From Candidatus Moraniibacteriota bacterium (GTDB lineage: Bacteria; Patescibacteriota; Minisyncoccia; Moranbacterales; UBA11712), in NCBI GenBank assembly GCA_028716005.1, contig JAQUQQ010000002.1, forward strand, positions 1-54,090: a stretch of 54,090 nt of DNA, in the 5' to 3' direction. The notes beneath the pieces are model-generated. The model saw only the letters and a program-made list of their open reading frames with translations. It searched no databases and was not told the DNA's origin. Numbering within the stretch: the stretch's first letter is position 1; every line of letters begins with the position of its first letter. Of the stretch, positions 31,290 to 50,378 are shown in pieces. Made by a program: the position numbers and the translations under genes.

Positions 31290-33089
31290 CTATTCAAGCT
31301 GGCTCGACAAATTTTGGAATTCCTGAAGCAACGCTTTCGCCGCTTTTTTATCGCCGGATTTCTCGGCTTCTTTTATTTTTTTGGAGAATTCAACTGTCTT
31401 TTCTTTGATCCTCATGCTTCTATGCCTTTTCAGTGATTTTTTGAGATCCTCTTCCGGAAAAGGAATTCTGTTTTCATCCCTTTCCACTTCAATTTCAAAG
31501 ACAGCCTCGTCAATCAGCCTTTGGGCTTCAAAATCAAAAACCAAGTTTTTTATTTTCTCGGAATCTTCCCCCGGCTTTTCTTTTTTGATTCTTTCGATTA
31601 TTTTTTCTGTCTTGTCTGAAAATTCTTTCGGGTCGATAGCCGCCTTTTGCCTTTCCGTCTCCCGGGGAAAAGCGAGCAGAAGGCCGATTATTCTTCTTTC
31701 CACCGCTTTTTCTTTTCCCGCGCTTTGGAAAGAAGCGTTCTCCTTTTGCCCGGCAGCCGTTTTCGGTTCGCTTTTGGCTTTTCTCAAAATTTCGACCAAG
31801 GCTCCTTCCCCGACACCCAGTTTTTCGGCCAGCTTCTTGATCCAGTGCCCCTTTTCAACGGGGTTGGAGATATCTTTCAAAACATTCAAAAGTTCTTTGG
31901 CGATTTTTTTCTTGTCGGCCGGATTTTTCGGGTCATGCCGCGAAAAGGCGTCCTCAAAGAAATATTCAACGACTTCCCGGGCCCCTTCGACCGCCTTTTC
32001 CCAAACGGCCTTGTCTTCCCGGACAACATCCGCCGCGTCCTTGCCTCTTGGCAACAGGACTATTCTAACATTCAAATCATTCTCAAGGCAAACTTTGGCG
32101 CTTCTTCTGGCCGCCGTCTGCCCGGCCGCGTCCATGTCAAAGGCCATCTTGATATTTTCCGTATAGCGCCTGATGACTTTTATCTGTTCCGGTCCGAAAG
32201 CCGTTCCGGAAACCGCTATCGTGTTTTGCAATCCCGCCTGCTGGGAAGCAATCACGTCCATGTTTCCTTCCACTAGTACGACTTCATCCCTCTTTTTGAT
32301 TTCAGTTTTGGCAAAATTGAGCCCATAAAGCACTTTGCTTTTGTCATAAAGTTCCGTCTGGGGCGTATTTATGTATTTGGCCGTTTTTTCGTCTCCGCCG
32401 GGAGCCACCCGCGCCGCAAAGCCCACCACCCGGCCCATGATGTCTTGAACCGGAAACATAATTCTATCCCTGAATCTGTCGTAAGCGTTAGTATTTGGTA
32501 TCTTGTATCTGGTATCCGGTATTTTGTTCTCGGAATCCTTTTCGACCAGCAGGCCAGTTTTAGCAATGTCCTCTATTTTATAATTTTTCTTCTGTAGAAA
32601 CTCCAGCATATTCCTCCATCCTTCCGGCGCGTAGCCGAGGCGGAATTTTTTGATTGTTTCGTCCGTGAGGCCACGTCCCCGCAAATATTTCAATATTTTG
32701 TCTTGGCCTTTTCCCTCCCAAAGATTCTTTTCATACCATTTCGCCGCGAGTTCCAAAATGTTATATAGTTTCGGCTTTGCGCTTTCTTTTTCCCTATCGC
32801 CCTTCTCAAATCTTTTCAGCTCAATTCCGGCTTTTTGGGCCAGCTGTTCAAGCGCTTCCCGAAATTCAATTCCTTCCATTTCCATCACAAAAGTGAAAAT
32901 GTCTCCGCCTTTTCCGCAGCCAAAGCAGTGAAAGCTCCGTCGCTCTTCGCTCACCATGAACGAGGGTGTTTTTTCATTATGAAAAGGACAGAGAGCCCTC
33001 CAAGCGCTCCCTGCTTTTTGAAGCCGGACATATTCGCCGACCAGATCAACGACACTTATTCTGTTTTTTATATCTTCAACGTCGGACAT
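31290..33089 (-). CDS. dnaG: DNA primase
   Basis: ORF 31290-33107 (GTG), trimmed to the ATG at 33089 (MSDVEDIKNR). CHC2 zinc finger CPFHNEKTPSF...CFGCG; TOPRIM VLVEGNMDVIA. Confidence 0.92.
   Translation of the reverse strand: MSDVEDIKNRISVVDLVGEYVRLQKAGSAWRALCPFHNEKTPSFMVSEERRSFHCFGCGKGGDIFTFVMEMEGIEFREALEQLAQKAGIELKRFEKGDREKESAKPKLYNILELAAKWYEKNLWEGKGQDKILKYLRGRGLTDETIKKFRLGYAPEGWRNMLEFLQKKNYKIEDIAKTGLLVEKDSENKIPDTRYKIPNTNAYDRFRDRIMFPVQDIMGRVVGFAARVAPGGDEKTAKYINTPQTELYDKSKVLYGLNFAKTEIKKRDEVVLVEGNMDVIASQQAGLQNTIAVSGTAFGPEQIKVIRRYTENIKMAFDMDAAGQTAARRSAKVCLENDLNVRIVLLPRGKDAADVVREDKAVWEKAVEGAREVVEYFFEDAFSRHDPKNPADKKKIAKELLNVLKDISNPVEKGHWIKKLAEKLGVGEGALVEILRKAKSEPKTAAGQKENASFQSAGKEKAVERRIIGLLLAFPRETERQKAAIDPKEFSDKTEKIIERIKKEKPGEDSEKIKNLVFDFEAQRLIDEAVFEIEVERDENRIPFPEEDLKKSLKRHRSMRIKEKTVEFSKKIKEAEKSGDKKAAKALLQEFQNLSSQLE
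32489..32523. repeat. Heptanucleotide array (GTAT family, 5 units) in frame inside dnaG
   Basis: tagtatt tggtatc ttgtatc tggtatc cggtatt; translated as NKIPDTRYKIPNT just before the conserved YDRFRDRIMFP. Confidence 0.88.
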
Positions 33090-33098
33090 TGAATTCGC

Positions 33099-33126
33099 GT
33101 GACGCACAACGCAAAACCTATAACGC
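33099..33126. repeat. Heptanucleotide array, GCGTTAY family, 4 units, inverted orientation
   Basis: gtgacgc acaacgc aaaacct ataacgc; lies 10 nt upstream of the dnaG ATG. Confidence 0.7.
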
Positions 33127-33127
33127 G

Positions 33128-33146
33128 TTTGGAAAATATTTCTAAA
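33128..33146. repeat. AT-rich hairpin between the two inverted arrays
   Basis: tttggaaa-ata-tttctaaa (8 bp including one G-T). Confidence 0.6.
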
Positions 33147-33180
33147 CGTTCTGCGTTACACGTTCTACATTACACGTTAT
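33146..33180. repeat. Heptanucleotide array, GCGTTAY family, 5 units
   Basis: acgttct gcgttac acgttct acattac acgttat; overlaps the TAA stop (33177-33179) of the next gene. Confidence 0.8.
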
Positions 33181-33449
33181 GAGAAGCTGCTCGTTTTCGC
33201 CTTGATCCCTTTGAGCCTGTTCAGCTCCTTCGCGAGCAGATCAATCTCTTTCGCCGTTCCTTCCGCCGCGACAACAATCAGCGCCAGACAATTCGAAACG
33301 CAGTGCCGCTCCACATTCACCCCGAGCCGGGCCATGATGAGCCGCCCGTTCTTCGTCAGAATCCGGTTGACGCTTGCCGAAAGGCCCTTCCGGTCGCTCA
33401 CAAAGATCGTTATGGTCGCAAGATGCAATTTTTCCTTTTTACTCGGCAT
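33177..33449 (-). CDS. TM1266-like ACT-fold small regulator (iron-only hydrogenase system regulator family)
   Basis: 90 aa. Pattern ATITIFVSDRK...VNRILTKNGRLIMARLGV...LALIVVAAEGT...LAKELNRLKGIKAKT resembles TM1266 as I recall it. Confidence 0.45.
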   Translation of the reverse strand: MPSKKEKLHLATITIFVSDRKGLSASVNRILTKNGRLIMARLGVNVERHCVSNCLALIVVAAEGTAKEIDLLAKELNRLKGIKAKTSSFS

Positions 33450-33496
33450 ACTATTACTCTAAACGATAAGAGAAAAATACTCAAATTTATTCCTTT

Positions 33497-33540
33497 TTTC
33501 CAAATTTCCCCAATTTTCCAAATCTTCCTATTTTCCAAAC
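33497..33540. repeat. 9-mer tandem array at a gene junction
   Basis: tttccaaat ttccccaat tttccaaat cttcctat tttccaaac; contains the NUDIX gene stop (33528-33530). Confidence 0.7.
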
Positions 33541-34100
33541 AGCATTTTTTTGAATTCTTTCCTGAATTTTCGGTCGTACCGCGCCCGAACCAGCGTGTTT
33601 TTGAGCTCCCCTTCATAAAAATTTTTATCTTCGCCGAGAGAAAGAAATTCGCCAAAGGTCGCCATCCTCATTTTGATTTTTTCTCCCGTATCCGGATGAG
33701 GATTCTGCTTTTTTACGCAGTCGCGGGCGACGAAATTATGAACCGTCCAGACAATTTTTCCGTAAGGATTTATTTTCTTCCAGAGTTTCCATTTTTTGGA
33801 AACGTATCCTGTTTCCTCCAGAAGTTCCCGTTTGGCCGCCTCGAGAGGCGATTCCCCTTCGTCCACTCTTCCTCCGGCCAAAGTATTTTTGTGTTTTTTC
33901 CAATCCGGCTGTTTCTGCCGGAGCAAAATTATTTTTTCTCCAACGGTGCCAATCACATTGACCGTATCGGCCCTCACGAGTTTTTCGAAAATCGCCGATC
34001 TCCCATCAAACATTTTCTGCTTCCAATGCCACACGTCAAAAATGACGCCCTTGAAAACGCGCTTGGCGTTTTTTGGAAGTTTTTTTCTTTTTCGTGACAT
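33528..34100 (-). CDS. NUDIX hydrolase
   Basis: 190 aa. Nudix box GGRVDEGESPLEAAKRELLEETGY. Confidence 0.87.
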   Translation of the reverse strand: MSRKRKKLPKNAKRVFKGVIFDVWHWKQKMFDGRSAIFEKLVRADTVNVIGTVGEKIILLRQKQPDWKKHKNTLAGGRVDEGESPLEAAKRELLEETGYVSKKWKLWKKINPYGKIVWTVHNFVARDCVKKQNPHPDTGEKIKMRMATFGEFLSLGEDKNFYEGELKNTLVRARYDRKFRKEFKKMLFGK

Positions 34101-34107
34101 AGATAAT

Positions 34108-34482
34108 TTATGATTTCCAGAGCCCGTGCAGGTTGCAATATTCCCGCGCAGTGATGTCTTCCGCCTCGACGCAAAATTCGGCCTCGGGAGCGTCTCCCGG
34201 TTTCAAATATTTCCGATAGGCTTTTCCATCTGCGAGAATTTCGATCCATTCGATATAGTGGGCTTCCTCCATCGGATGCGGCACCGACCCGACTTTCACT
34301 CTGACGCCTTTTTCTGTTTTTTCTATGACGGGCACGTGTTTTTCAACCGCCGCGTCAACCGTATTCTCGATTTGCCGAGCCATCGGCTCGCCGCAACAAA
34401 CGAGCTCCCCTCCGCCCGGATGCAATACCTCGACAATATTCCCGCACTTGGCGCATTTGTAGATTTGGTTTTGTTCGGTCAT
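34108..34482 (-). CDS. dfx: Desulfoferrodoxin (2Fe superoxide reductase)
   Basis: 124 aa. Centre I CAKCGN...CCGEPM; centre [24 protein letters not shown]. Confidence 0.9.
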
Positions 34483-34701
34483 ATATTTGGTTCAGTGATT
34501 ACGTTCTTTATTACTCTAACCTCGTCCAGTTTATTTCTCAACTTCCTCACTCCTATTTTTTTCTCCTAAGAGCCCATTTCGGCGATTCTCGGCACATCCC
34601 CAATTTTCGCTTTTCGAATATGCATATTCACTTGGTTGATTTTCTGACTGCTCTTGGCTGAACGCGAAACCACTCTCAGAAAAGGAGGTTTCTCATATAT
34701 G

Positions 34702-35442: not shown

Positions 35443-35454
35443 TGGATTTTTCTT

Positions 35455-35477
35455 TTCCTAATCTCCGAGATTAGGAA
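35455..35477. repeat. 23-nt palindrome TTCCTAA-N9-TTAGGAA
   Basis: ttcctaatct-ccg-agattaggaa, 13 nt upstream of the methyltransferase ATG; a sibling lies at 9976-9998. Confidence 0.75.
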
Positions 35478-35614
35478 ATTTATTTAATAAAAAATTTATC
35501 AACGTTTTTTTCTATGTATATTCCCGAAAACCGTATTTGTTCGGGGCGTTTCTTGCCCGTCAATTCCATTGAGATACTGAACTGGGTCGAGGACGGTCCT
35601 CGACTGAAATATTT

Positions 35615-36202: not shown

Positions 36203-36203
36203 A

Positions 36204-36935: not shown

Positions 36936-36945
36936 ATATATTTTT

Positions 36946-39408: not shown

Positions 39409-39496
39409 TGGCGGAAGGGGAGGGATTCGAACCCTCGATACCTTGCGGTATACCCGCTTTCCAAGCGAGCGCACTCGGCCTCTATGCGACCCTTCC
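39409..39496 (-). tRNA. tRNA-Ser (anticodon GGA), CCA encoded
   Basis: Hand-folded 88 nt. Acceptor GGAAGGG/CCCTTCC, D stem GCA/TGC, anticodon stem CTCGC/GCGGG with loop TTGGAAA, long variable arm TATACCGCAAGGTATC, T arm GAGGG-TTCGAAT-CCCTC, then GCCA. Confidence 0.88.
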
Positions 39497-39789
39497 ATTA
39501 TTTTTTATCAACTGCTCAAACGCATTGCCGCCCTTATACGATTTTATCTTTTTCTCCCTCCTCATCGCTTCCTTTTTATCTGAAAATTTTTCTGTATGCA
39601 CAAGCCTAAACGGACGCCGTTTTCTTGTCGATATATTTCTGCCTTCATTATGAAACTTCAAACGCATTTCGACATTACCTGTGTACCCTATATAATAACG
39701 ACCGTCTTTCTTGCTTTGAATTATATAAACATAGTACATAACTTTCCAACCCCGCCGTGGCGGGGACTCGGCCTCTATGCGACCCTTCC
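39473..39789 (-). mobile_element. GIY-YIG cassette bounded by an exact 24-nt duplication of the tRNA-Ser 5' end
   Basis: actcggcctctatgcgacccttcc occurs at 39473-39496 and 39766-39789. GC hairpin ccccgcc/ggcgggg at 39750-39765. Confidence 0.5.
39482..39739 (-). CDS. GIY-YIG nuclease-family small protein
   Basis: 85 aa. MYYVYIIQSKKDGRYYIGYTGNVEMRLKFHNEG...REKKIKS; its last 15 nt, including the TAG, overlap tRNA positions 1-15. Confidence 0.8.
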   Translation of the reverse strand: MYYVYIIQSKKDGRYYIGYTGNVEMRLKFHNEGRNISTRKRRPFRLVHTEKFSDKKEAMRREKKIKSYKGGNAFEQLIKNNGRVA

Positions 39790-39871: not shown

Positions 39872-42313
39872 CTACCTCTCCATCTTCTCAATCGCAATCA
39901 TTGTCTTGATGACCGTATCCGGGTTGAGGGATATAGAATCAATTTTTTCCTTCACTAAAAATTGAGCAAAATCAACAAAATCCGACGGCGCCTGGCCGCA
40001 AATTCCGACTTTGCGGCGGGCTTTGTGGGCTTTTTCTATAACTTGGCGGATGAGTTCTTTCACGGCTTCATTGCGCTCGTCATAGACATGCGCCACTTTG
40101 GCGCTGTCCCGATCCACTCCAAGAGTGAGTTGCGTGAGATCGTTCGAACCGATGGAAAATCCGTCAAAAATTTTTGAAAATTCCGCGGCGAGAATCACGT
40201 TCGAAGGAATTTCACACATAACGTTAACCTGAAGACCTCCTTCTCCGCGCTTGAGTCCATATTTTTCCATTTCAGCGAGAACTTTTTTTCCTTCCTCGAC
40301 CGTCCGGCAAAATGGAATCATGGCTTTCATGTTCGTGAGTCCCATCACATCGCGCACTTTCTTGAAAGCCAGGCACTCGAGGCGAAATCCTTCTTTATAA
40401 TCTTCGTCATAGTATCTCGACGCCCCCCGCCAGCCAATCATTGGGTTTTCTTCAGCCGGTTCGAAACTCTTTCCGCCAATCAAGGTCGCGTATTCATTCG
40501 TTTTGAAGTCCGACATCCGAACAATCACGTCTTTCGGCCAAAAAGCGGCGCAAATCCGCCCGATTCCCTCGGCCAATTTCTCCACAAAAAAATCTTCTTT
40601 GTTTTTATAGCCCTGCGTGAGTTCGTTGATTTTCTTTTTTTCCTCTTTTTCTTTCACTTTCTCGAAATGGATGAGAGCCATCGGGTGGATTTTGATATAT
40701 TCCGTGATGATGAATTCTTCTCGGGCGAGGCCAACACCATCGTTTGGTATAAAACTCAAGTCAAAAGACTGATCGGGATTGCCGACATTCATCATAATCT
40801 TCGTCTTCGATTTTTTGATATTTTTGAGGTTGGTTGTTTTTATCTCAAATTTGAGAAGGCCGTCATAGACATGCCCCTCTTCCCCCTCGGCGCAGCAGAC
40901 TGTCACCGGCTTTGTGTCTTTCACGGCGCTGGTCGCGTTTCCGGCTCCGACAATGCAGGGAATTCCAAGCTCGCGCGAAACAATCGCCGCGTGGGATGTC
41001 CGACCGCCGGAATTCGTGACAATGGCCGAAGCAATTTTCATGATTGGCTCCCAGTCCGGATCAGTCATTTCCGTCACCAGGACTTCGCCTTTTTTGAAAT
41101 CCGCGATTTTAGCCACGTCTTTGATCACATTGGCTTTCCCTTGACCGATTTTTCCTCCCACTGCCGCGCCAGTGCACAAAATTTTGCTTTTTGATTTCAA
41201 AATATATTCTTCAAGGACATTCTTTTCTTTTTGCGACTGCACGGTTTCGGGACGGGCCTGGACGATATAGAGTTTTCCGTCTCGGCCGTCTTTGGCCCAT
41301 TCGATGTCCATCGGCTTTTTGTAGTGCTCCTCAATGATGAGCCCCCACTTGGCCAGTTCCAGCGCTTCTTCATCCGTGAGACAGAATTTTTTTTGGTCTT
41401 CCTGCGAAACCGCCACGTTTTGAGTTGAAGCCCCGCCCCCGACGGAATAAACCAGTTTCGTTTCCTTGCTCCCCAGCTTTTTCCCGACAATTGATTTGAA
41501 TCCCTTTCGAAGAGTCGGCTTGTGAACGATGAATTCATCCGGATTAACCTTGCCCTTCACGATATTTTCTCCAAGACCCCAGGAGCCGTTCAGGATAATC
41601 GCGTCCGAAAATCCCGATTCAGTGTCGATCGTGAACATCACCCCGCTTGAAGCCTCGTCGGAGCGCACCATTTTTTGCACTCCTACCGAAAGAGCGATTT
41701 TGAGATGGTCGAAACCCTTATCCACGCGATAGGATATGGCCCGATCGGTGAAAAGTGAAGCAAAACATTTCTTGATCGACTCAAGAATTTGATATTCTCC
41801 GGTGATGTTGAGATAAGATTCCTGCTGACCGGCGAAAGACGCGTCCGCAAGATCCTCGGCGGTCGCGCTGGATCGCACCGCGACGTCCACTCCGCCGGCG
41901 AAATGATTGGTATGATCTTTTTTGTCCCAGCTTATTTTGAAACTGCGGTGCGGATTATATTCACGGGAAAGTTTCGAGTATGATTCAACGATTGAATTTC
42001 GAAGGTCGAAAGGAAATTCCGCCGAAAGAATAGCCTGGCGCACTTTGTATCCTCGTTCGGCGAGATTTCGCATATTTCCCGTATCAAGGCCCTTCAGAAT
42101 TTTTTTGATTTCCGCGTCCAGATTATTCTGGCGCAAAAAATAGCGGTAAGCTTCGGAGGTTATGGAAAAACCATCAGGAATTCTGATTCCATACTTGCGA
42201 AGATTCCGATGCATTTCCCCAAGCGAGGCGTTTTTCCCGCCGACAAGTTCGATATCTTTTATTCCGGTTTCACGAAACCAGAGAATGTATTTTGTTTTTG
42301 TATTGTATATCAT
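39872..42313 (-). CDS. ppsA: Phosphoenolpyruvate synthase (pyruvate, water dikinase)
   Basis: 813 aa. ATP-grasp N-terminus, swivel His GGRTSHAAIVSRELGIPCIVG, C-terminal PEP-utilising TIM barrel. Confidence 0.93.
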   Translation of the reverse strand: MIYNTKTKYILWFRETGIKDIELVGGKNASLGEMHRNLRKYGIRIPDGFSITSEAYRYFLRQNNLDAEIKKILKGLDTGNMRNLAERGYKVRQAILSAEFPFDLRNSIVESYSKLSREYNPHRSFKISWDKKDHTNHFAGGVDVAVRSSATAEDLADASFAGQQESYLNITGEYQILESIKKCFASLFTDRAISYRVDKGFDHLKIALSVGVQKMVRSDEASSGVMFTIDTESGFSDAIILNGSWGLGENIVKGKVNPDEFIVHKPTLRKGFKSIVGKKLGSKETKLVYSVGGGASTQNVAVSQEDQKKFCLTDEEALELAKWGLIIEEHYKKPMDIEWAKDGRDGKLYIVQARPETVQSQKEKNVLEEYILKSKSKILCTGAAVGGKIGQGKANVIKDVAKIADFKKGEVLVTEMTDPDWEPIMKIASAIVTNSGGRTSHAAIVSRELGIPCIVGAGNATSAVKDTKPVTVCCAEGEEGHVYDGLLKFEIKTTNLKNIKKSKTKIMMNVGNPDQSFDLSFIPNDGVGLAREEFIITEYIKIHPMALIHFEKVKEKEEKKKINELTQGYKNKEDFFVEKLAEGIGRICAAFWPKDVIVRMSDFKTNEYATLIGGKSFEPAEENPMIGWRGASRYYDEDYKEGFRLECLAFKKVRDVMGLTNMKAMIPFCRTVEEGKKVLAEMEKYGLKRGEGGLQVNVMCEIPSNVILAAEFSKIFDGFSIGSNDLTQLTLGVDRDSAKVAHVYDERNEAVKELIRQVIEKAHKARRKVGICGQAPSDFVDFAQFLVKEKIDSISLNPDTVIKTMIAIEKMER

Positions 42314-42332
42314 GTATTTTGTATTATGTATT
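42298..42332. repeat. Heptanucleotide array, GTAT family, 5 units
   Basis: ttgtatt gtatatc atgtatt ttgtatt atgtatt; spans the ppsA start (42311-42313) and the TAA of the four-helix-bundle gene (42324-42326). Confidence 0.8.
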
Positions 42333-42698
42333 TTTTATTTTTTTTAATCCGCAGATCAATTTGTGTGCTACAATTGTTTGATTCGCAATTCTACTAAAAT
42401 CTTCTTTTTGCAAATAGCCCACATCCCGTGCAACAGTTAACTGATTCTGAAGTTCAGTCAAAGAGCCTAACGCTATGGCATAAAATTGTAATTTTTCTTT
42501 GATTGTATTCCGGCTAAAACCCTCTGCGATGTTAGAAGTTATAGAAACAACGCAACGCCTCATCTGAATAGTTAATCCGAAAAGTTCTTCTTTAGGAAAA
42601 TTTTTTGTAACTTCATAAACTAAAAGGACGAGTTTATGTCCTTCTCGCCAAGCATTTAAATCTGTGAAAGATTTTATTTTACTTCCCTCCTTAATCAT
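42324..42698 (-). CDS. Four-helix-bundle protein (23S rRNA intervening-sequence protein family, TIGR02436-like)
   Basis: 124 aa. FTDLNAWREGHKLVLLVYEVTKNFPKEELFGLTIQMRRCVVSITSNIAEGFSR...LQFYAIALGSLTELQNQL. Confidence 0.82.
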   Translation of the reverse strand: MIKEGSKIKSFTDLNAWREGHKLVLLVYEVTKNFPKEELFGLTIQMRRCVVSITSNIAEGFSRNTIKEKLQFYAIALGSLTELQNQLTVARDVGYLQKEDFSRIANQTIVAHKLICGLKKIKNT

Positions 42699-42730
42699 AC
42701 ACTATACGCTATACAAAATACACTATACAC
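42696..42730. repeat. Heptanucleotide array, GTAT family (ATAC orientation), 5 units
   Basis: catacac tatacgc tatacaa aatacac tatacac; the first 3 nt are the start codon of the four-helix-bundle gene, and the last nt begins the pyk TAG. Confidence 0.85.
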
Positions 42731-44208
42731 TAAGAAATTTCCTCTACCTTCACCAAACTCATATGCTCTTTTTTCATGTGCGGGCGTCCGGCGACAATCA
42801 CCACTTTGTCTTTTCTTTTCAGCAGCTTGTTTTTTTTGAGAGTGGCGATTGATTTGTCCAGAAGTTCGTCCAAATCCCGGCAATCCGGAAGAACGAAACT
42901 TTCCGCTCCCCAGACCAAGGTGAGCTGATTGTGAGTTTTTTCTCGGTTGGTCATCACGAATAATCTCTCTTCCGACCGGTGCCGGGCAATTACTCGAGCC
43001 GTAAAACCAGAAACGCTGGCGGCAACAATGGCTTTGGCCCCGCTGTCCTTCACGAGTTCGTGGGCTGATTGGGCAATTGCTGACGAAACTGACATTTTTT
43101 CATCGCTCAAAAATCCATGCTCGAGGTCGTCAAAAGGAGACTCCTCTGTTTTTTCAATTATTTTTCTCATCATCCTGACAGCTTCCACCGGATATTTCCC
43201 GCTGGCTGTTTCCCCCGAAAGCATCACGGCGTCCGCGTGATCAATGACCGCGTTTGAAACGTCCGTCACTTCCGCTCGCGTCGGACGAGGATTCCGGATC
43301 ATGGAGTCGAGCATCTGGGTGGCCACAATGGCCGGCTTTCCGGCTCGCAAGGCTTTCGCTACCATTTCCTTTTGAAGAATGGGGAGTTCTTCCTGGGGCA
43401 TTTCAATTCCCAAATCTCCCCGGGCAACCATAATCGCGTCGGAAACTTTGAGGATTTCATTGAAATTTTTGACTGCCTCCCTTCTTTCAATTTTTGCGAC
43501 CACCTGGGGAATCCTTTTTTCGTCGGATATTTTTTTTCTTATCAATTGCTGGAGATCTTTTATTTCTTTCGCGTTCCGGACAAAAGACATGGCCACAAAA
43601 TCCGCGTCTTGAGAAAGAGCAAAATCCAAAACTTCTTTGTCCTGGCTCGTCAGCGCCCCAAGTTTCGCCGAAATTCCCGGAATATTGACTCCTTTCCTCA
43701 TTTTGATGACCCCGTCGTTTTCAGCGCGACAATGCAAACATTTTTTATCTTTTTTGAAAACCGAGAGCTTGATCAGACCGTCTTCAACCAAAATTTCATT
43801 GCCTACTTTGACAAGCTTCGTCACTTCGGGAAGATCAAGAAAAATGTTTTTCTGCCGGCCACTTTTTTTTGCAAATCTGCGGTTTCTGCCAGCTACCAGC
43901 AAAGTTTCACCTTTTTTGACTTTCACTTCCCGGTTCCCGATTGTTCTGATCCTTGGCCCTTGAAGATCGGCCATTATTCCGATTGGCTTTCTGATTTTTC
44001 GGCTCACCTCGCGGATACTCTTGATTGCTCTTTTATGAGACGCGAAATCTCCGTGCGAAAAATTGAGCCGGGCAACATCCATTCCCTCCCTTGCCATCTG
44101 CCGAAGCACTGATTTTTTTTCTGAAGCCGGACCGATGGTGGCAATTATTTTGGTTCTCTTTCCGCCAGAGGCGGATCCGCCTTTGGCGGACATTCCATCA
44201 TTTGTCAT
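42730..44208 (-). CDS. pyk: Pyruvate kinase
   Basis: ORF 42730-44220 (TTG). More likely ATG at 44208 or 44193. KIIATIGPAS, MVARGDLGIE, C-terminal regulatory domain. Confidence 0.9.
   Translation of the reverse strand: MTNDGMSAKGGSASGGKRTKIIATIGPASEKKSVLRQMAREGMDVARLNFSHGDFASHKRAIKSIREVSRKIRKPIGIMADLQGPRIRTIGNREVKVKKGETLLVAGRNRRFAKKSGRQKNIFLDLPEVTKLVKVGNEILVEDGLIKLSVFKKDKKCLHCRAENDGVIKMRKGVNIPGISAKLGALTSQDKEVLDFALSQDADFVAMSFVRNAKEIKDLQQLIRKKISDEKRIPQVVAKIERREAVKNFNEILKVSDAIMVARGDLGIEMPQEELPILQKEMVAKALRAGKPAIVATQMLDSMIRNPRPTRAEVTDVSNAVIDHADAVMLSGETASGKYPVEAVRMMRKIIEKTEESPFDDLEHGFLSDEKMSVSSAIAQSAHELVKDSGAKAIVAASVSGFTARVIARHRSEERLFVMTNREKTHNQLTLVWGAESFVLPDCRDLDELLDKSIATLKKNKLLKRKDKVVIVAGRPHMKKEHMSLVKVEEIS
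44161..44190. repeat. Twin 15-nt hairpin GC element, copy inside the pyk 5' end
   Basis: tccgcc-aga-ggcgga tccgcc-ttt-ggcgga; translated as SAKGGSASGG at the pyk N-terminus. Confidence 0.85.
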
Positions 44209-44292: not shown

Positions 44293-44301
44293 GGAAAAAT
44301 A

Positions 44302-44315
44302 CTATTGCGCAATAG
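44302..44315. repeat. Perfect 14-nt palindrome
   Basis: ctattgc|gcaatag, 5 nt downstream of the DUF4870 gene stop. Confidence 0.7.
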
Positions 44316-44319
44316 CAAT

Positions 44320-44658: not shown

Positions 44659-44716
44659 AAATTCACCTCGCTTTCTTTTTTATTTTGTAGAATTAGTTCG
44701 CTGATACAATTATACA

Positions 44717-45607: not shown

Positions 45608-45612
45608 AAAAT

Positions 45613-45778
45613 TAAAATCCTAAATTCTAAACACTAAATCCCAAACAAATTCTCAGCCAGAGGCTGATCCGCCTTTGGTGGAAAATTATCAAAATTCAAA
45701 TGACCAAACTACTTTTGACTTTCGTCATTTCGAATTTTGATATTATTTAGGATTTCGAAATTAGGATTTAGGATTTTG
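45613..45778. mobile_element. MITE-like composite: inverted CTAAATY heptad arrays flanking a twin hairpin and an AATGAC hairpin
   Basis: Left taaaatc ctaaatt ctaaaca ctaaatc ccaaaca (45613-45647). Twin hairpin at 45653-45682. aaatgac...gtcattt. Right tatttag gatttcg aaattag gatttag gattttg (45744-45778). Confidence 0.45.
45653..45682. repeat. Twin 15-nt hairpin GC element
   Basis: tcagcc-aga-ggctga tccgcc-ttt-ggtgga. Confidence 0.85.
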
Positions 45779-45782
45779 ATAA

Positions 45783-46355: not shown

Positions 46356-46387
46356 AAAAAGCTATTTCAACTTATCTCGCGGAATTT

Positions 46388-47377: not shown

Positions 47378-47432
47378 GATGAAATAATAACATAAAACGA
47401 AATTTTAGGCCACTGCCAGCAACCCGATATTC

Positions 47433-47504
47433 ACCCCGCACCACAATAAACATTGTTCCAGCCAATTATTATAAAATCAAAAATATCGGATTGTGGTGCG
47501 GGGT
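47433..47504. repeat. 15-bp GC-rich inverted repeat around a 42-nt AT-rich loop
   Basis: accccgcaccacaat (47433-47447) / attgtggtgcggggt (47490-47504). A crossing 7-bp pair ccgatat (47424-47430) / atatcgg (47483-47489) is also present. Confidence 0.75.
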
Positions 47505-47568
47505 TCCTTTCTCCTTTCATAAAAAAAGAAAATTTGCGAAAAATATGCTGTTTTGGTAAAATTCATCC

Positions 47569-48012
47569 ATGGACTGGAAAAACTATATAGTCATAATCGT
47601 TCCAATCGCCGTCGGGCTTTTCACTCAAGCTTTGAAATTTTTTCTTTATTCACTGAAGCACGGATTCAGGTGGGAATATGCCTTCACGCATGGCCACATG
47701 CCCAGCGCTCATACGGCTTTCGTCATTTCAACTCTCACGAGTATCGGCTATTTTGAAGGAACAACCTCCGGAGTTTTCGCTCTCGCTTTCATCTTTGCTT
47801 TTATTATTATTGACGATGCTGTGCGCCTCCGGGTATTTCTCGGAGACCAGGGAAGATACCTCAACATGCTGGTTGATCAGCTCCCCGTAGACAAGAAAAA
47901 ATTCCCTCGCCTGAAAGAGAGAATCGGCCATCGCATTTCCGAAGTTATTGCTGGCGGCGCTATTGGTCTTATTTTTTCATTTGTTCTGATAAAATTTCTC
48001 GAATCACTCTAG
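47569..48012 (+). CDS. Divergent PAP2 family protein (DUF212)
   Basis: 147 aa. HGHMPSAHTAFVISTLTSIG, IIIDDAVRLR. Confidence 0.75.
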   Translation: MDWKNYIVIIVPIAVGLFTQALKFFLYSLKHGFRWEYAFTHGHMPSAHTAFVISTLTSIGYFEGTTSGVFALAFIFAFIIIDDAVRLRVFLGDQGRYLNMLVDQLPVDKKKFPRLKERIGHRISEVIAGGAIGLIFSFVLIKFLESL

Positions 48013-49267
48013 GGTCGTTCCAGGGAATCCTTTTTGCGCCGACTACCATTATCTCTTCCGCCCCTTTCCCGGTGACGGCGACTATATCTCCCGACTTTGC
48101 AATCTGCAAGGCTTTTTTGATGGCTTCGCGACGATCAAATATCCGCCAGGCATTTTCGTTTTCTTTTTTGTGTTTCAAAACTCCAGCAAAAACTTCGTCA
48201 ATAATTTTTTGAGGATCTTCATTATACGGATCTTCATTGGTGACAAAACAATAGTCAGCATGTCGCGCCACAATTTCTCCCATAATCGGCCTCTTGCCCC
48301 GGTCTCTTTCTCCGCAAGAGCCAAAGACGGCGATTATTTTCGCGTTTTCTTTTTTTAGCTTGTTTATATAATTATATAATTTTTCGAGCGAATCCGGTGT
48401 CACGGCGAAATCAACAATGATTTCGAGTCCCCGGTCATTCTCAATATGCTCCATCCTGCCGGACACGCCTTTTATTTTCGCGAGAGCCTGTGAAATTTTC
48501 GGCAGCGCTATATTTTGTGAAAGTCCCACGCACGTCGCGGCCAAAGCGTTTTCGACATTAAATTCCCCCGGCAAATTAATTTGGAAGCTAGTATCTTGTA
48601 TTTGGTATTTGGTATTTTCTGTCCCTAGTTCAATGTTTTCGGAAATAATTTCGTGGAACGTATTGAACTGTGTTATGCGTTCTACGTTACGCGTTGCAAG
48701 ATGATATCCGTATTTATCTTTTACTCCATACTTTAAAAAATCCTCTGCTTTTTCCATTGCTAAATTAACCACTGTTGCTCCATTTATATTCTTCGCTGTC
48801 ATCGCAAATAGCTTTTCTTTCGCTTTCGCATACTTTTCCATCGTTTCGTGGTAATCAAGATGTTCCCGCGTTAAATTCGTTATCGCCGCCACATCGAAAT
48901 CGGTGCCCCAGACGCGGTTTTGGTCAAGTGAATGCGAAGATATTTCGAGAACGGCATAACTGCAACCCGCTTTAACGGCTTCGCTCAGATGTCTTTGCAA
49001 TCGCCAGCTGGAAAGCGTCGTAAACTTTGTGTCGTTCACCCATTCTTTTTCGCCGATCTTGAAATTTATGGTCGAGGCTACGGCGACCTTGTCGCCGGCC
49101 TCTTCCAGAATTTTGGCTATCATCTGCACCGTCGTCGTTTTGCCGTTCGTTCCCGTCACTCCTATAGCTTTCAATTTCCTTGACGGAAAACCATGCCAAA
49201 CATTCGCGAGAACCGCTTGGAAAAGATGATATATGTTTTTGACGGATTGGGGAATGATCTTTTTCAC
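47969..49267 (-). CDS. murE: Mur ligase, MurE-like (UDP-MurNAc-tripeptide synthetase)
   Basis: 432 aa. IGVTGTNGKTTT, LEISSHSLDQNRV, NLTREHLDYH, DRREAIKKAL...GKG. The 3' end overlaps the convergent PAP2 gene by 44 nt. Confidence 0.82.
   Translation of the reverse strand: MKKIIPQSVKNIYHLFQAVLANVWHGFPSRKLKAIGVTGTNGKTTTVQMIAKILEEAGDKVAVASTINFKIGEKEWVNDTKFTTLSSWRLQRHLSEAVKAGCSYAVLEISSHSLDQNRVWGTDFDVAAITNLTREHLDYHETMEKYAKAKEKLFAMTAKNINGATVVNLAMEKAEDFLKYGVKDKYGYHLATRNVERITQFNTFHEIISENIELGTENTKYQIQDTSFQINLPGEFNVENALAATCVGLSQNIALPKISQALAKIKGVSGRMEHIENDRGLEIIVDFAVTPDSLEKLYNYINKLKKENAKIIAVFGSCGERDRGKRPIMGEIVARHADYCFVTNEDPYNEDPQKIIDEVFAGVLKHKKENENAWRIFDRREAIKKALQIAKSGDIVAVTGKGAEEIMVVGAKRIPWNDPRVIREILSEQMKK
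48589..48616. repeat. Heptanucleotide array (GTAT family, 4 units) in frame inside murE
   Basis: tagtatc ttgtatt tggtatt tggtatt; translated as NTKYQIQDT. Confidence 0.85.
48670..48697. repeat. Heptanucleotide array (GCGTTAY family, 4 units) in frame inside murE
   Basis: gtgttat gcgttct acgttac gcgttgc; translated as ATRNVERITQ. Confidence 0.8.
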
Positions 49268-49343
49268 CCCGTTAGAAATAATATTTAATGATTTTATTTT
49301 CTTGTTAAATTTCTATCTCCCGTTAGTGGATTTCTAGCGAGGT

Positions 49344-50378
49344 TCACGGCTTTATTCTTCTTAGTGTTTTATATATCCAATATTTCGTGGGATTCAAGAT
49401 TATATCATAGCATCCAGGAAATTCAATAGTCCTTGTCTCCGGCGCAAAGCCGGTTTTGAATTTTGTGATTCCTGCCCAGTTTTTGTATTTAGTATTTGGT
49501 ATCTGGTATTTGGTATTTACTCCTCCGAGATCGTATTTTATACAGCCATTCTTTTTTGCATCGATAATCGTTTGCCATTGGAGAAGATACGGCGCCATCG
49601 CATCGCGATGCGCGTTATCCGACGCCCCGTGCATATACGTCGCCGTTTTTCCAAAAAACAAAACCAAGTTCGCGGCAATAATTTTCCCCTCATATTCGGC
49701 AGCATATAGTTTCAAAATTTCCGGTGGAATTGTTTCGAACATTTTTCGATAATAGTTTTCGGGATGTGCCGTAATCTTATCCCGCTGACTGGTGATTTTC
49801 ACTAGTCTCAAAAACTCTTCGATATTTTCCTGCGCTATACGTTCCACGTTATGCGTTATGCGAACGCCTTTCTTTTGAGAAAGGCGAATATTGTACCGCG
49901 TTTTCTGCTTCATTCCTGCCAAAATTTCTTCTTCGCTCTTCGAAATATCCAAAACCAATATTTCCCTCGGCTGCATATTCACCGGTGATTTTTTCATTTT
50001 TTTCTCTTTCGACAGACTTTCTTTTATCATCTCCAATCCTTCCGCGCTATTCGGCTCAACCCGAATCCAACCAACATTATTTTCTTTCGACAGACTAATT
50101 AAATTATCAAGAAAAATTTTTATTTTCCTCTCCGCGTTTTGCGTTATGCGTTTTGCGTTGTGCGTTACCGGTCCCCGTGGCACATAAAAATAATTCCCAA
50201 CAAGAGGAAGCGAATGCGCTATCGCATATGCATATATGAAAGCATTGCCATTTTCCTTTTCCTCCAGCTCAAAAGTTTTTCGACCGACACTTTCCTGAAA
50301 CTTCCGCCAATAAACTGATTGCAAAAAGCCCCCATGAGGGGAATTTTGTTGAACAAAATCAAAAAAATTCTTCTCCAT
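49344..50378 (-). CDS. femX: FemAB-family peptidoglycan bridge-forming aminoacyltransferase
   Basis: ORF 49344-50420 trimmed to the ATG at 50378 (MEKNFFDFVQQ), because the extension is encoded by a heptad array. FLQSVYWRKFQ, YMHGASDN...APYLLQW, KFKTGF. Confidence 0.8.
   Translation of the reverse strand: MEKNFFDFVQQNSPHGGFLQSVYWRKFQESVGRKTFELEEKENGNAFIYAYAIAHSLPLVGNYFYVPRGPVTHNAKRITQNAERKIKIFLDNLISLSKENNVGWIRVEPNSAEGLEMIKESLSKEKKMKKSPVNMQPREILVLDISKSEEEILAGMKQKTRYNIRLSQKKGVRITHNVERIAQENIEEFLRLVKITSQRDKITAHPENYYRKMFETIPPEILKLYAAEYEGKIIAANLVLFFGKTATYMHGASDNAHRDAMAPYLLQWQTIIDAKKNGCIKYDLGGVNTKYQIPNTKYKNWAGITKFKTGFAPETRTIEFPGCYDIILNPTKYWIYKTLRRIKP
49483..49517. repeat. Heptanucleotide array (GTAT family, 5 units) in frame inside femX
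   Basis: ttgtatt tagtatt tggtatc tggtatt tggtatt; translated as NTKYQIPNTKYK. Confidence 0.9.
49832..49866. repeat. Heptanucleotide array (GCGTTAY family, 5 units) in frame inside femX
   Basis: gcgctat acgttcc acgttat gcgttat gcgaacg; translated as RITHNVERIAQ. Confidence 0.85.
50134..50168. repeat. Heptanucleotide array (GCGTTAY family, 5 units) in frame inside femX
   Basis: gcgtttt gcgttat gcgtttt gcgttgt gcgttac; translated as VTHNAKRITQNAE. Confidence 0.9.

What the first reader, a model, noticed from the sequence alone, without database searches (positions are those of the whole stretch)
32489..50168. Array-derived peptide inserts in essential enzymes DnaG, MurE and FemX
Heptad arrays are read in frame inside conserved genes. 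DnaG gains NKIPDTRYKIPNT immediately before the conserved YDRFRDRIMFP. MurE gains ATRNVERITQ and, 54 nt away, NTKYQIQDT before the conserved LPGEFNVENALAA. FemX gains VTHNAKRITQNAE after PRGPV, RITHNVERIAQ, and NTKYQIPNTKYK inside GGV...NWAGITKFKTGF. From my memory of these families, all sit where homologs have short variable loops. The situation resembles the in-frame Rickettsia palindromic elements, but the inserts here are tandem heptads. Three inserts in one 345-aa FemX is remarkable.
Basis: partly seen in the sequence, partly recalled or inferred. Interest (0 to 1): 0.75.

Follow-up and report, generated by a model that had tools for sequence, protein, structure and literature searches.

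The report
In-frame heptanucleotide repeat arrays in enzymes
Short tandem 7-base DNA repeats that litter this ultra-small bacterium's genome are also read in frame inside DnaG, MurE and FemX, mostly as floppy surface loops. This is real and recurs across the whole bacterial group, but it looks like tolerated passenger DNA rather than new protein function.

Summary
The quoted peptides and their heptad DNA are all present. Period-7 arrays are far above chance (11 found against 0.1 in shuffles). The genome is a Candidatus Moranbacteria (Patescibacteria).

Five of the six arrays lie in variable-length loops that are shorter in relatives and in solved structures. AlphaFold models put the DnaG and FemX inserts in low-confidence loops. 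The sixth, MurE NTKYQIQDT, is not an insertion: that hairpin is 17 residues in nearly all homologs, and its DNA has become heptad-periodic in place.

The phenomenon is general. In related genomes the same sites carry different heptads or none. Across 1.37 Mb, arrays are about 6-fold denser between genes, cluster at about 31 nt, and inside genes are mostly in the stop-free, hydrophilic orientation.

Best reading: heptanucleotide repeats like the cyanobacterial STRR and TAACTGA repeats, kept in genes only where translation tolerates them, analogous to in-frame Rickettsia palindromic elements. How the arrays arise is unresolved. Stepwise 7-nt slippage would frameshift, and one relative's MurE is broken by exactly one unit.

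Side finding: genes of the PF05635 (S23p) family are bracketed by inverted heptad arrays.

The parts
31290..33107 (-). dnaG (DNA primase), the host gene of one array
   Evidence: TIGR01391 matches at 1e-129 over residues 10-430. Pfam finds the Zn-ribbon, DNAG_N, Toprim and DnaB_bind domains.
32491..32522 (-). ATAC-family heptad array in DnaG: ATACCGG ATACCAG ATACAAG ATACCAA ATAC, read as KIPDTRYKIPNT
   Evidence: It sits in the loop of a beta-hairpin between strands 187-189 and 208-210, where model confidence (pLDDT) is about 52. P. aeruginosa DnaG 5vaz and Aquifex 2au3 lack about 12 residues here. The relative L081 has an orthologous ATAC array. L082 has a perfect AACTCTC array of 4.9 units and the same length at the same place.
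47969..49267 (-). murE (Mur ligase that lacks the N-terminal domain), the host of two arrays
   Evidence: TIGR01085 matches at 7e-121, covering profile positions 69-471.
48670..48697 (-). Decayed AACGC-family array at MurE site 1: GCAACGC GTAACGT AGAACGC ATAACAC, read as ATRNVERITQ
   Evidence: This segment is 19 aa here against 8-9 aa in the shortest homologs. Other lineages carry other heptads here: L084 has GGAATCA at 4.3 units, L026 has AATCAAG at 7 units, and L038 and L061 have others. T. maritima MurE 4bub lacks 11 residues here.
48591..48617 (-). ATAC-family array at MurE site 2: ATACCAA ATACCAA ATACAAG ATAC, read as NTKYQIQDT. It replaces the sequence in place and is not an insertion.
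   Evidence: The segment is 17 aa in 23 of 24 homologs. Period-7 DNA has arisen here independently in L084 (AATTCAT), L026 (CAGTTCT) and L007/L013/L038 (ATAC-like). There is no gap against 4bub.
49344..50378 (-). femX (FemAB-family aminoacyl-tRNA-dependent peptidyltransferase). The true start is the ATG at 50378.
   Evidence: PF02388 matches at 2e-45. Homologs begin at MEKNF. The AlphaFold model has mean pLDDT 90 and TM-score 0.76-0.79 to FemX structures 1ne9 and 6snr.
50134..50167 (-). AACGC-family array at FemX site 1: ACGCACA ACGCAAA ACGCATA ACGCAAA ACGC, read as THNAKRITQNAE
   Evidence: Residues 72-83 form a loop plus the N-terminal cap of a helix, with pLDDT about 73. W. viridescens FemX lacks 6 residues here. 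Relatives carry different heptads at this site.
49830..49864 (-). Decayed AACGC-family array at FemX site 2: TTCGCAT AACGCAT AACGTGG AACGTAT AGCGCAG, read as RITHNVERIAQ
   Evidence: It covers predicted strand 173-176 plus loop 177-182, with pLDDT 74-81. The net gain is only about 3-5 aa. L084 has a perfect CGCGCAA array of 4.4 units here.
49485..49516 (-). ATAC-family array at FemX site 3: ATACCAA ATACCAG ATACCAA ATACTAA ATAC, read as NTKYQIPNTKYK
   Evidence: It lies in loop 287-301, where pLDDT is below 50 for residues 292-298. FemX 1ne9 lacks 7 residues and 6snr lacks 3 here. The shortest homologs have 7 aa against 16 here.
50375..50412 (+). ATAC-family array between genes. It fills the whole spacer from the ruvA stop codon to the femX ATG, in GTAT orientation relative to the genes.
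   Evidence: Its reverse complement matches the array upstream of ruvA at 29 of 32 positions (read directly from the sequences).
50986..51017 (-). ATAC-family array between genes, 7 nt upstream of the ruvA ATG
   Evidence: It is nearly identical in the relative L084.
42314..42341 (-). ATAC-type array spanning the stop codon of the PF05635 gene and the start of the PEP-utilising enzyme gene, whose N-terminus reads MIYNTKTKY
   Evidence: The relatives L081 and L082 start this protein at MK(T/Q)K.. with no array.
42697..42732 (+). ATAC-type array that fills the spacer from the pyruvate kinase stop codon to the PF05635 ATG, inverted relative to the array at 42314-42341
42324..42698 (-). PF05635 (S23p, four-helix-bundle) gene bracketed by the two inverted arrays. 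It is absent from this position in L081 and L082.
   Evidence: The precomputed Pfam label is. The same bracketed layout occurs in 8 further loci.
14619..14656 (+). ATAC-family array between genes, 7 nt upstream of the lgt ATG at 14658
29949..29984 (-). AACGC-family array (a perfect GCATAAC run of 3.6 units) just beyond the 3' end of rpoD, between two convergent genes
33146..33178 (-). AACG-family array between the stop codon of the upstream TM1266-like gene and the dnaG start
51947..51961 (-). Short AACGC array in the spacer between holA and the GNAT gene
45608..45782 (-). Spacer between lemA and the M48 peptidase gene, built of inverted AAATCCT/AGGATTT-type heptad arrays that fold into one long hairpin
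   Evidence: The minimum free energy is -62.3 kcal/mol, with z = -8.8 against shuffles. The architecture is conserved in L082.

Best explanation
The six inserts belong to a genome-wide and phylum-wide population of short tandem heptanucleotide arrays. The arrays are typically about 31 nt, or about 4.4 units. This genome has a few unit families, mainly ATACCAA-like and AACGCAT-like.

The arrays are DNA-level repeats. They live mainly in the tiny spacers between genes, often abutting start or stop codons and sometimes paired as inverted repeats that form hairpins.

Because 7 and 3 share no factor, an array inside a gene is read in all three frames in turn and yields a 7-residue peptide repeat. 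Purifying selection therefore keeps arrays inside genes only under three conditions:
- The orientation and unit variants give no stop codon and a hydrophilic peptide rich in N, K, S, Q, T and I.
- The total length keeps the reading frame.
- The site is a surface loop, or a hairpin whose own 7-residue periodicity fits the repeat.

The same tolerant sites in DnaG, MurE and FemX are therefore occupied again and again in different lineages by different heptads. The peptides are passengers, not functional additions.

Shown: the sequence facts, the statistics, the loop locations, the recurrence and turnover at the same sites, and the orientation bias.

Inferred: that the peptides are neutral passengers. 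Also inferred: that arrays in these genes were installed or replaced in blocks of at least 21 nt, or by reiteration of a local seed in place, rather than by stepwise 7-nt slippage, which would frameshift the gene.
For: **Real arrays of two families**
- Period-7 arrays occur 11 times against 0.1 in shuffles.
- The same two unit families occur at 6 sites inside genes and about 8 sites outside genes in the window.

**Same sites, different heptads in relatives**
- FemX, MurE and DnaG sites in relatives carry other heptads or none. Examples are HNTQHIT, ISNFQFP, KSEKLKV and NPKSKIQ, with the DNA shown.
- The DnaG array of this window is replaced in L082 by a perfect AACTCTC array of identical length.

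**Loop locations**
- The DnaG insert lies in a hairpin loop with pLDDT about 52.
- The FemX inserts lie in loops with pLDDT 45-81.
- The models match the expected folds.
- Solved homologs lack these residues.

**Statistics over 1.37 Mb of Patescibacteria loci**
- Array density is 0.70 per 10 kb in coding DNA and 4.09 per 10 kb outside it.
- Peptides in the sense reading have hydropathy (GRAVY) -0.58, against +0.45 if the array were reversed.
- 45 of 84 coding arrays would contain a stop codon if reversed.

**Independent replicate**
- Of ATAC-type arrays from more than 120 genomes, 102 of 127 lie outside long ORFs.
- Those inside long ORFs favour the hydrophilic orientation 20 to 5.

**Selection on unit variants**
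- A perfect ATAACGC array would hit TAA in every frame.
- The coding copies alternate ACA, AAA and ATA variants and so avoid it. The copy outside genes at 29959-29983 is perfect.

**Frameshift hazard**
- MurE in L001 is frameshifted at its CTCAAAG array. Adding exactly one unit restores the full ORF.

**MurE site 2**
- In L084 the array starts at the conserved TCC GAA TTC codons and reiterates AATTC. This keeps TTC at both conserved Phe codons, which are 21 nt apart.

**Precedents in the literature**
- Heptanucleotide repeats are the commonest class of long simple repeats in several prokaryotes.
- TAACTGA repeats occur in sets of 2-6 copies just upstream of start codons.
- RPEs insert in frame into conserved genes.
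Against: - No expression, proteomic or population data exist. Translation of the inserts and their neutrality are not shown.
- Some arrays outside genes are conserved across substantial divergence. The array upstream of ruvA is nearly identical in L084, and the lemA-M48 hairpin is conserved in L082. At least those arrays may therefore be functional.
- The sharp length mode at 30-33 nt, in both coding and non-coding DNA, is not predicted by a simple model of neutral repeats.
- Unit families are shared among unlinked sites: 18.8% of array pairs within a locus are related, against 7.1% between loci. The passenger model does not explain this.
- Persistent occupation of the same loops could also reflect some benefit.
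Confidence: 0.62

Rival explanations
1. The arrays are ordinary replication-slippage microsatellites. Each arises locally from a chance 2-unit seed and grows or shrinks unit by unit. No dispersal or block installation is involved, and loops merely tolerate them.
For: - One published idea is that the polymerase footprint favours slippage of 7-nt units (Mrazek 2007, as summarised).
- A one-unit difference breaks MurE in L001.
- Long arrays of up to hundreds of nt exist in other taxa and in some Patescibacteria.
- The L084 MurE site 2 array seems seeded by the local GAATTC.
Against: - Steps of 7 nt frameshift these single-copy genes, which are presumably essential, so stepwise growth would pass through lethal intermediates.
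- Perfect arrays cluster at 30-33 nt, with none at 28-29.
- The same heptad families recur at many unlinked sites in one genome.
- An array can be replaced by an unrelated perfect array of the same length.
Confidence: 0.2
2. The arrays are functional nucleic-acid elements. They could be stems cut by RNase III, mRNA-end structures, or binding sites for a protein that recognises heptads. The copies inside genes would then be kept for that DNA- or RNA-level role, with the peptides as a by-product.
For: - 6 of 9 arrays outside genes lie within 7 nt of a start codon. TAACTGA repeats show the same pattern.
- Inverted arrays bracket PF05635 genes.
- Inverted arrays also bracket ruvA, with 29 of 32 positions complementary.
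- The lemA-M48 spacer folds into a hairpin with z = -8.8.
- The array upstream of ruvA is conserved in L084.
- Array length is uniform at about 31 nt.
- The Coxiella IVS has tandem heptamers at its RNase III site.
Against: - Arrays inside genes turn over quickly and differ in unit sequence between close relatives.
- Several unrelated unit families coexist in one genome.
- Many homologs have no array at these sites.
- No Rfam family matches.
- Inverted partners are not general: 3 inverted pairs against 16 direct pairs.
Confidence: 0.12
3. The inserted loops are adaptive at the protein level. They would be lineage-specific interaction or regulatory loops in cell-wall and replication enzymes of an episymbiont.
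For: - The same loops are occupied across many lineages.
- All the genes remain intact.
Against: - The peptide sequence at one site differs completely between close relatives, for example KIPDTRY against TLNSQLS.
- Identical heptads also sit in non-coding spacers.
- The inserts lie in low-confidence loops.
- Some homologs have minimal loops.
Confidence: 0.04
4. The arrays are assembly or sequencing artefacts, or the genes are pseudogenes.
For: - MurE in L001 is frameshifted at an array.
- The assembly behind L082/L083, which looks long-read, has split genes.
Against: - All three ORFs in the window are intact, with full-length domain coverage.
- The same sites carry arrays in dozens of independent assemblies made with different assemblers.
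Confidence: 0.02

Closest known systems
Heptanucleotide long simple-sequence repeats in prokaryotes (Mrazek et al. 2007, as summarised in PMC4679880)
   Same: Both are tandem direct repeats of a 7-nt unit, far more frequent than chance and patchy across taxa. A slippage origin was proposed for that class.
   Different: That class was described as mostly non-coding, with in-gene repeats favouring units that are multiples of 3. Here 7-nt arrays sit in frame inside conserved core enzymes, show a length mode near 31 nt, and occur in Patescibacteria. I found no published description for that group.
TAACTGA heptamer direct repeats of Beggiatoaceae, Cyanobacteria and Bacteroidetes (MacGregor 2015, PMC4679880)
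   Same: [quoted passage not shown] Orientation is constrained by stop codons. Both are suspected to be mobile, with no known mechanism.
   Different: The units differ, and several families coexist per genome here. In-ORF TAACTGA copies are rare and peripheral, at protein ends or in hypothetical proteins. Here the arrays are internal to the catalytic domains of DnaG, MurE and FemX, at recurrent hot spots.
Cyanobacterial STRR heptamers, including their presence inside the RNase P RNA gene (Vioque 1997; only the title was seen)
   Same: Both are genome-wide families of tandem heptamers. Both can occupy a variable region of an essential gene without destroying it.
   Different: The host there is an RNA gene, not a protein-coding gene. 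The unit sequences and the phylum differ. STRR unit sequences are recalled from memory and were not checked here.
Rickettsia palindromic elements (RPE) inserted in frame (PMC10969869)
   Same: Both are repeats with selfish-looking behaviour, inserted in frame in many unrelated conserved genes, apparently compatible with fold and function. In relatives, the FemX loops also contain nested GC-rich palindromic elements.
   Different: RPEs are palindromic elements of about 150 bp that each encode a fixed peptide. The arrays here are direct tandem heptads of about 31 nt, read in all three frames. One of them replaces rather than inserts.
23S rRNA intervening sequence (IVS) elements with an S23p ORF, for example in Coxiella burnetii (PMC4990558)
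   Same: Both have a PF05635 ORF immediately preceded by 3-4 tandem heptamers, flanked by sequences that can pair. In Coxiella the heptamer copy number varies among strains. The same bracketed layout occurs here and in 8 other loci.
   Different: Here the cassette lies between protein-coding genes (pyruvate kinase and the PEP-utilising enzyme), not in rRNA. The link between these cassettes and the arrays inside genes is unproven. In L084 the cassette's heptad family does not match that genome's coding arrays.

Membership tests
Heptanucleotide simple-sequence repeats (LSSR) | Head-to-tail direct repeats of a 7-nt unit | tested here: met
   Tandem Repeats Finder reports period 7 or 14 at every site. 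The units are spelled out.
Heptanucleotide simple-sequence repeats (LSSR) | Longer or more frequent than chance in that genome | tested here: met
   There are 11 arrays at lag 7 against 0.1 in shuffles, and 0-2 at other lags. The perfect-run length distribution shows the same excess.
Heptanucleotide simple-sequence repeats (LSSR) | Copy number changes by whole-unit slippage | tested here: inconclusive
   MurE in L001 is out of frame by exactly one unit. No strain-level or read-level data were available. No protein more than 70% identical to this FemX exists in the database.
Cyanobacterial STRR | Tandem heptamer families dispersed through the genome | tested here: met
Cyanobacterial STRR | The canonical STRR unit sequences, in heterocystous cyanobacteria | tested here: not met
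   The units here are ATACCAA-like and AACGCAT-like. The organism is Candidatus Moranbacteria. STRR units are recalled from memory.
TAACTGA repeat system | The unit is TAACTGA | tested here: not met
   No such unit appears among the window's arrays.
TAACTGA repeat system | Sets of 2-6 copies within a few nt upstream of start codons | tested here: met
   6 of 9 arrays outside genes end within 7 nt of a start codon: those before lgt, ruvA, femX, the PF05635 gene, the PEP-utilising enzyme gene and the GNAT gene.
TAACTGA repeat system | In-ORF copies are rare and sit at protein ends | tested here: not met
   The six arrays are internal to the catalytic domains.
Rickettsia palindromic elements | A palindromic element of about 100-150 bp | tested here: not met
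   The arrays are direct repeats of about 18-35 nt with no internal palindrome.
Rickettsia palindromic elements | In-frame insertion in unrelated conserved genes at surface positions | tested here: met
   The arrays lie in loops of the AlphaFold models. The residues are absent from solved homologs.
Phase-variable contingency loci | A repeat tract inside an ORF whose unit is not a multiple of 3 | tested here: met
   The tracts are 7-nt units inside ORFs.
Phase-variable contingency loci | Located in dispensable surface, restriction-modification or virulence genes, with on/off switching among strains | tested here: not met
   The hosts are dnaG, murE and femX. Switching among strains could not be tested.
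IVS / S23p cassette (side finding) | A PF05635 ORF flanked by inverted repeats, with tandem heptamers just upstream of the start | tested here: met
   Window 42314-42732. The same layout occurs in L084, L086, L110, L163, L158, L192, L176 and L105.
IVS / S23p cassette (side finding) | Inserted in a 23S rRNA helix | tested here: not met
   It lies between the pyruvate kinase and PEP-utilising enzyme genes.

The most novel reading that the evidence does not exclude
Heptad arrays are not passive microsatellites. They would be discrete modules of about 31 nt, written in one step, and repeatedly overwritten, at tolerant sites by an active mechanism. Candidates are reiterative gap-filling from a local 7-nt seed, or a copy-and-paste process tied to the PF05635 (S23p, Avd-like) cassettes, whose ends are inverted heptad arrays. 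That would be a new kind of micro mobile element, or a new mutational process, that edits loops of core enzymes across Patescibacteria without changing their length.
Probability: 0.2. Interest if true: 0.85.

Novelty: new variant of a known kind. Interest (0 to 1): 0.62.

Why it matters
Patescibacteria have tiny, streamlined genomes, yet they tolerate, at measurable mutational risk, 7-nt repeats inside replication and cell-wall enzymes.

- **Annotation and alignment.** The result explains a widespread class of odd low-complexity peptides in their proteins, such as ISNFQFP, NTKYQIP and HNTQHIT. It warns annotators and alignment or phylogeny pipelines about segments at recurrent sites that are not homologous, and about frameshifts at arrays.
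- **A natural map of tolerant loops.** The recurrent sites show which loops in DnaG, MurE and FemX accept insertions.
- **An open question made testable.** How tandem heptamer families arise and spread has been unresolved since the cyanobacterial STRRs were described. Three observations give it concrete handles: the length mode near 31 nt, same-length replacement, and the association with PF05635 cassettes.

Tried and rejected
- **Literature on heptamers in this phylum.** Searches for heptanucleotide or heptamer repeats in CPR bacteria, Patescibacteria or Parcubacteria found nothing relevant. A 2025 survey of short tandem repeats across life does not mention heptamers or Patescibacteria. The Vioque 1997 STRR paper is not held in the library.
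- **Inverted pairs as a general rule.** I tested whether same-family arrays generally bracket genes as inverted pairs. There were only 3 inverted pairs against 16 direct pairs, so this is not general. The detector also missed the imperfect arrays that flank PF05635 genes.
- **Finding PF05635 genes.** A phmmer search with two PF05635 proteins was too insensitive. It was replaced by a profile built from 120 homologs.
- **Fixed insertion size.** I tested whether gains are always +21 or +30 nt. They are not: net gains at array-bearing sites are 0, +3, +6 or about +10 aa. Arrays partly overwrite the older loop.
- **A universal length cap near 31 nt.** This was rejected. A sample of diverse phyla chosen for ATAC-type arrays has many arrays of 45-544 nt, though the 30-32 nt mode persists.
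- **Cassette ends as the source of coding arrays.** I checked whether the heptad family at cassette ends matches the coding arrays of the same genome. It holds only loosely in the window (a shared ATAC core) and fails in L084.
- **Known RNA families.** Rfam finds only the tRNA-Ser.
- **Strain polymorphism.** No metagenome scan for strain variants was run, because no protein more than 70% identical to this FemX exists in the database.

Full report

The three ORFs are intact. The ORF at 31290-33107(-) is DnaG (TIGR01391, 1e-129). The ORF at 47969-49267(-) is MurE (TIGR01085, 7e-121), and it lacks the N-terminal domain. The ORF at 49344-50378(-) is a FemAB-family protein (PF02388, 2e-45).

Every quoted peptide is present and is encoded by tandem heptads on the sense strand. 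There are two unit families:
- ATAC[C/T/A]A[A/G], at DnaG 32491-32522, MurE 48591-48617 and FemX 49485-49516.
- [A/G]NAACGC, at MurE about 48670-48697, FemX about 49830-49864 and FemX 50134-50167.

Period 7 stands out sharply. There are 11 arrays at lag 7 against 0.1 in shuffles, and 0-2 at lags 4-12. Core-based counts are 11 and 8, against about 2 expected. The same families also occur at about 8 places outside genes in the window.

**2. Are they insertions?**

FemX homologs name the organism as Candidatus Moranbacteria, a Patescibacteria (CPR) lineage. I aligned homologs from the protein database and from 80 genome loci. MurE lies next to FemX in most of them.

| Site | Length here | In homologs | Against solved structures |
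|---|---|---|---|
| DnaG loop | 20 aa | 7-9 aa minimum | 5vaz and 2au3 lack about 12 |
| MurE site 1 | 19 aa | 8-9 aa minimum | 4bub lacks 11 |
| FemX site 1 | 18 aa | 7-12 aa | 1ne9 lacks 6 |
| FemX site 3 | 16 aa | 7-12 aa | 1ne9 lacks 7, 6snr lacks 3 |
| FemX site 2 | 15 aa | 10-12 aa | not assessed |
| MurE site 2 | 17 aa | 17 aa in 23 of 24 | no gap against 4bub |

FemX site 2 is mostly a replacement. MurE site 2 (GTENTKYQIQDTSFQIN) has no net gain, so the heptads there have overwritten a conserved beta-hairpin in place. The same hairpin has independently become heptad-periodic in L084 (AATTCAT), L026 (CAGTTCT) and L007/L013/L038.

In L084 the array begins at the conserved TCC GAA TTC codons and reiterates AATTC. 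The two conserved Phe codons are 21 nt apart, which equals three heptads, so both survive. A 7-nt DNA repeat read in three frames is a 7-residue peptide repeat, which fits this hairpin.

**3. Structure**

The AlphaFold model of FemX has mean pLDDT 90 and TM-score 0.76-0.79 to FemX crystal structures.
- Site 1 (residues 72-83) is a loop plus the cap of a helix, with pLDDT about 73.
- Site 2 (173-185) covers a short strand plus a loop, with pLDDT 74-81.
- Site 3 (287-301) is a loop, with pLDDT below 50 at 292-298.

The DnaG N-terminal model has mean pLDDT 86 and is 2.0 Å rmsd from the S. aureus DnaG polymerase domain. It puts residues 194-206 in the loop of a hairpin between strands 187-189 and 208-210, with pLDDT about 52. 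MurE was mapped only by sequence alignment to solved structures.

**4. The phenomenon is general**

At each site, other lineages carry other heptads, often as perfect arrays of 4.3-4.9 units, or nothing at all.
- L084 FemX has GAATTAT/GAATCAG, CGCGCAA and AAATCTC at the same three sites. Its MurE has three arrays.
- L009 has AATTTCC twice in FemX.
- DnaG relatives about 80% identical carry ATAC, AACTCTC, or what look like AAATCAC-type arrays (peptide evidence only for the last).

L081 shares the window's ATAC array in DnaG. L082, whose flanks are closest to L081, has a perfect AACTCTC array of the same length at the same place, which is a replacement.

Arrays occur in many Patescibacteria classes, including Berkelbacteria and Falkowbacteria. 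An ATAC-type array pattern hits more than 120 genomes against 0.07 expected. Many are Patescibacteria, but Bacteroidota, cyanobacteria and DPANN archaea are also hit.

**5. Signs of selection**

Over 1.37 Mb, arrays are about 6-fold denser outside genes (4.09 against 0.70 per 10 kb). Peptides in the sense reading are hydrophilic (GRAVY -0.58, against +0.45 if reversed) and rich in S, N, I, K and Q. Reversing the array would create a stop codon in 45 of 84 cases.

In the independent ATAC-selected set, 102 of 127 arrays lie outside long ORFs. The rest favour the hydrophilic orientation 20 to 5.

A perfect ATAACGC array would meet TAA in every frame. The coding copies alternate ACA, AAA and ATA variants, while the copy outside genes at 29959-29983 is perfect.

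The hazard is visible in a relative. MurE in L001 is frameshifted at its CTCAAAG array, and adding exactly one unit restores a full-length ORF.

**6. Unexplained regularities**

- Perfect runs and overall extents show a mode at 30-33 nt, about 4.4 units, both inside and outside genes. There are no perfect runs of 28-29 nt, and almost no arrays exceed 39 nt in the loci chosen by FemX.
- Longer arrays do exist elsewhere, so this is a mode and not a cap.
- Unit families are shared among unlinked sites within a genome: 18.8% of array pairs are related, against 7.1% between loci.
- Net length gains are not quantised (0, +3, +6, about +10 aa), so arrays partly overwrite what was there before.

Steps of 7 nt frameshift, so arrays in these single-copy genes, which are presumably essential, must have been installed or exchanged in blocks of at least 21 nt or by reiteration in place. 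This is inference, not observation.

**7. Arrays outside genes and a side finding**

Six of nine arrays outside genes end within 7 nt of a start codon. Several fill the whole spacer between two genes.

The PF05635 (S23p, four-helix-bundle) gene at 42324-42698 is bracketed by inverted ATAC-type arrays. It is absent from this position in the syntenic relatives L081 and L082.

Nine, counting the window's own, have the same layout: an array abutting the ATG, the ORF, then an inverted array. The eight others are L084, L086, L105, L110, L158, L163, L176 and L192.

Homologs of this small protein are 70-83% identical across very many contigs. That is more conserved than the best FemX match and is consistent with mobility.

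The literature gives a precedent. The Coxiella 23S rRNA intervening sequence has 3-4 tandem heptamers directly upstream of its S23p ORF. Their copy number varies by strain, and the RNase III site lies at the first repeat.

Two other structures are built from inverted arrays:
- ruvA is bracketed by arrays that are complementary at 29 of 32 positions.
- The lemA-M48 spacer is one long hairpin (z = -8.8), conserved in L082.

Whether these cassettes have anything to do with the arrays inside genes is open. In L084 the heptad families do not match.

**8. Comparison with what is known**

Heptanucleotide tandem repeats are a recognised and poorly understood class. Examples are the Mrazek 2007 long simple repeats, the cyanobacterial STRRs (which also occur inside the RNase P RNA gene), and the TAACTGA repeats that sit just upstream of start codons. 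In-frame selfish repeats in conserved genes are known from Rickettsia palindromic elements.

What appears new here:
- The combination: direct heptads read in frame inside the catalytic domains of core enzymes.
- Recurrent hot-spot sites with rapid exchange of unit families.
- Same-length overwriting of a structured hairpin.
- A length mode near 31 nt.
- The setting in Patescibacteria, for which I found no published description.

**9. Verdict**

One 'insert' is a replacement. The phenomenon is clade-wide rather than lineage-specific. The best-supported reading is that these are tolerated passenger repeats. I class it as a new variant of a known kind, of moderate to high interest.

Noticed in passing
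window 42314-42732; also L084 9500-10000, L086 185-626, L110, L163, L158, L192, L176, L105: PF05635 (S23p, four-helix-bundle) ORFs are bracketed by inverted heptad arrays of about 4.5 units. The 5' array abuts the ATG and the 3' array follows the stop codon. This gene is missing between the pyruvate kinase and PEP-utilising enzyme genes in relatives L081 and L082. Homologs are 70-83% identical across thousands of contigs, which suggests a mobile cassette like the 23S rRNA intervening sequences.
   Followed up: partly
window 50379-50410 and 50986-51017: ruvA is bracketed by two 32-nt ATAC-family arrays in inverted orientation, complementary at 29 of 32 positions. The upstream array, and the whole spacer between rpsT and ruvA, is about 90% conserved in L084, although FemX is only 70% identical between the two genomes.
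   Followed up: partly
window 45608-45782: The spacer between lemA and the M48 peptidase gene is a long hairpin whose arms are inverted heptad arrays (AAATCCT/AGGATTT and AAATTCG/TGAATTT). Its folding energy is -62.3 kcal/mol, with z = -8.8. The architecture is conserved in L082, and no Rfam family matches it.
   Followed up: partly
window 45653-45673, 51121-51141, 44161-44190: A small GC-rich hairpin element, GGCGGATCAGCCTYTGGCTGA, occurs at three places: two exact copies and one overlapping palindromic variant, giving 4 matches against 0.01 expected. One copy is nested inside the heptad hairpin. Another lies in the 5' extension of the pyruvate kinase ORF.
   Followed up: no
L001 3895-3917 (MurE of a Ca. 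Moraniibacteriota metagenome-assembled genome, JAUXSN010000032.1): MurE is frameshifted exactly at a CTCAAAG array of 3.3 units. Inserting one more unit restores a full-length ORF. This is either real slippage or an assembly error at the repeat.
   Followed up: yes
FemX loops in L007, L038, L002, L005, L004, L011, L020, L083 (site tables): Besides heptads, the same FemX loops in relatives contain nested GC-rich stretches that look palindromic and are read in frame. Examples are CHPELVSGS..KQVRHD and QPHP.PLLI..RG. These loops seem to collect several kinds of small repeat.
   Followed up: no
window 42286-42341 / ORF 39872-42313(-): The N-terminus of the PEP-utilising enzyme (MIYNTKTKYILWF) runs into the heptad array. 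Relatives start at MKTKHILWF or MKQKYVLWF. This is a seventh array that is partly translated.
   Followed up: partly
window 39409-39739: An 85-aa GIY-YIG nuclease ORF (PF01541, 1e-18) sits immediately next to, and slightly overlaps, the tRNA-Ser(GGA) gene.
   Followed up: no
window 47969-49267: MurE aligns to profiles and to solved structures only from about position 69-100 onward. It lacks the usual N-terminal domain, as do its Patescibacteria relatives.
   Followed up: no
L082/L083 (ENA contig_107715): Several genes (dnaG, murE, polA) are split into pieces in this relative. This looks like frameshift errors in a long-read assembly, so gene integrity there should not be over-interpreted.
   Followed up: no
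one search hit list (DnaG homologs) and one search hit list (PF05635 homologs): Many DnaG homologs are annotated 'partial', and many PF05635 homologs lie on contigs of about 1 kb. This may mean that assemblies break at these repeats.
   Followed up: no
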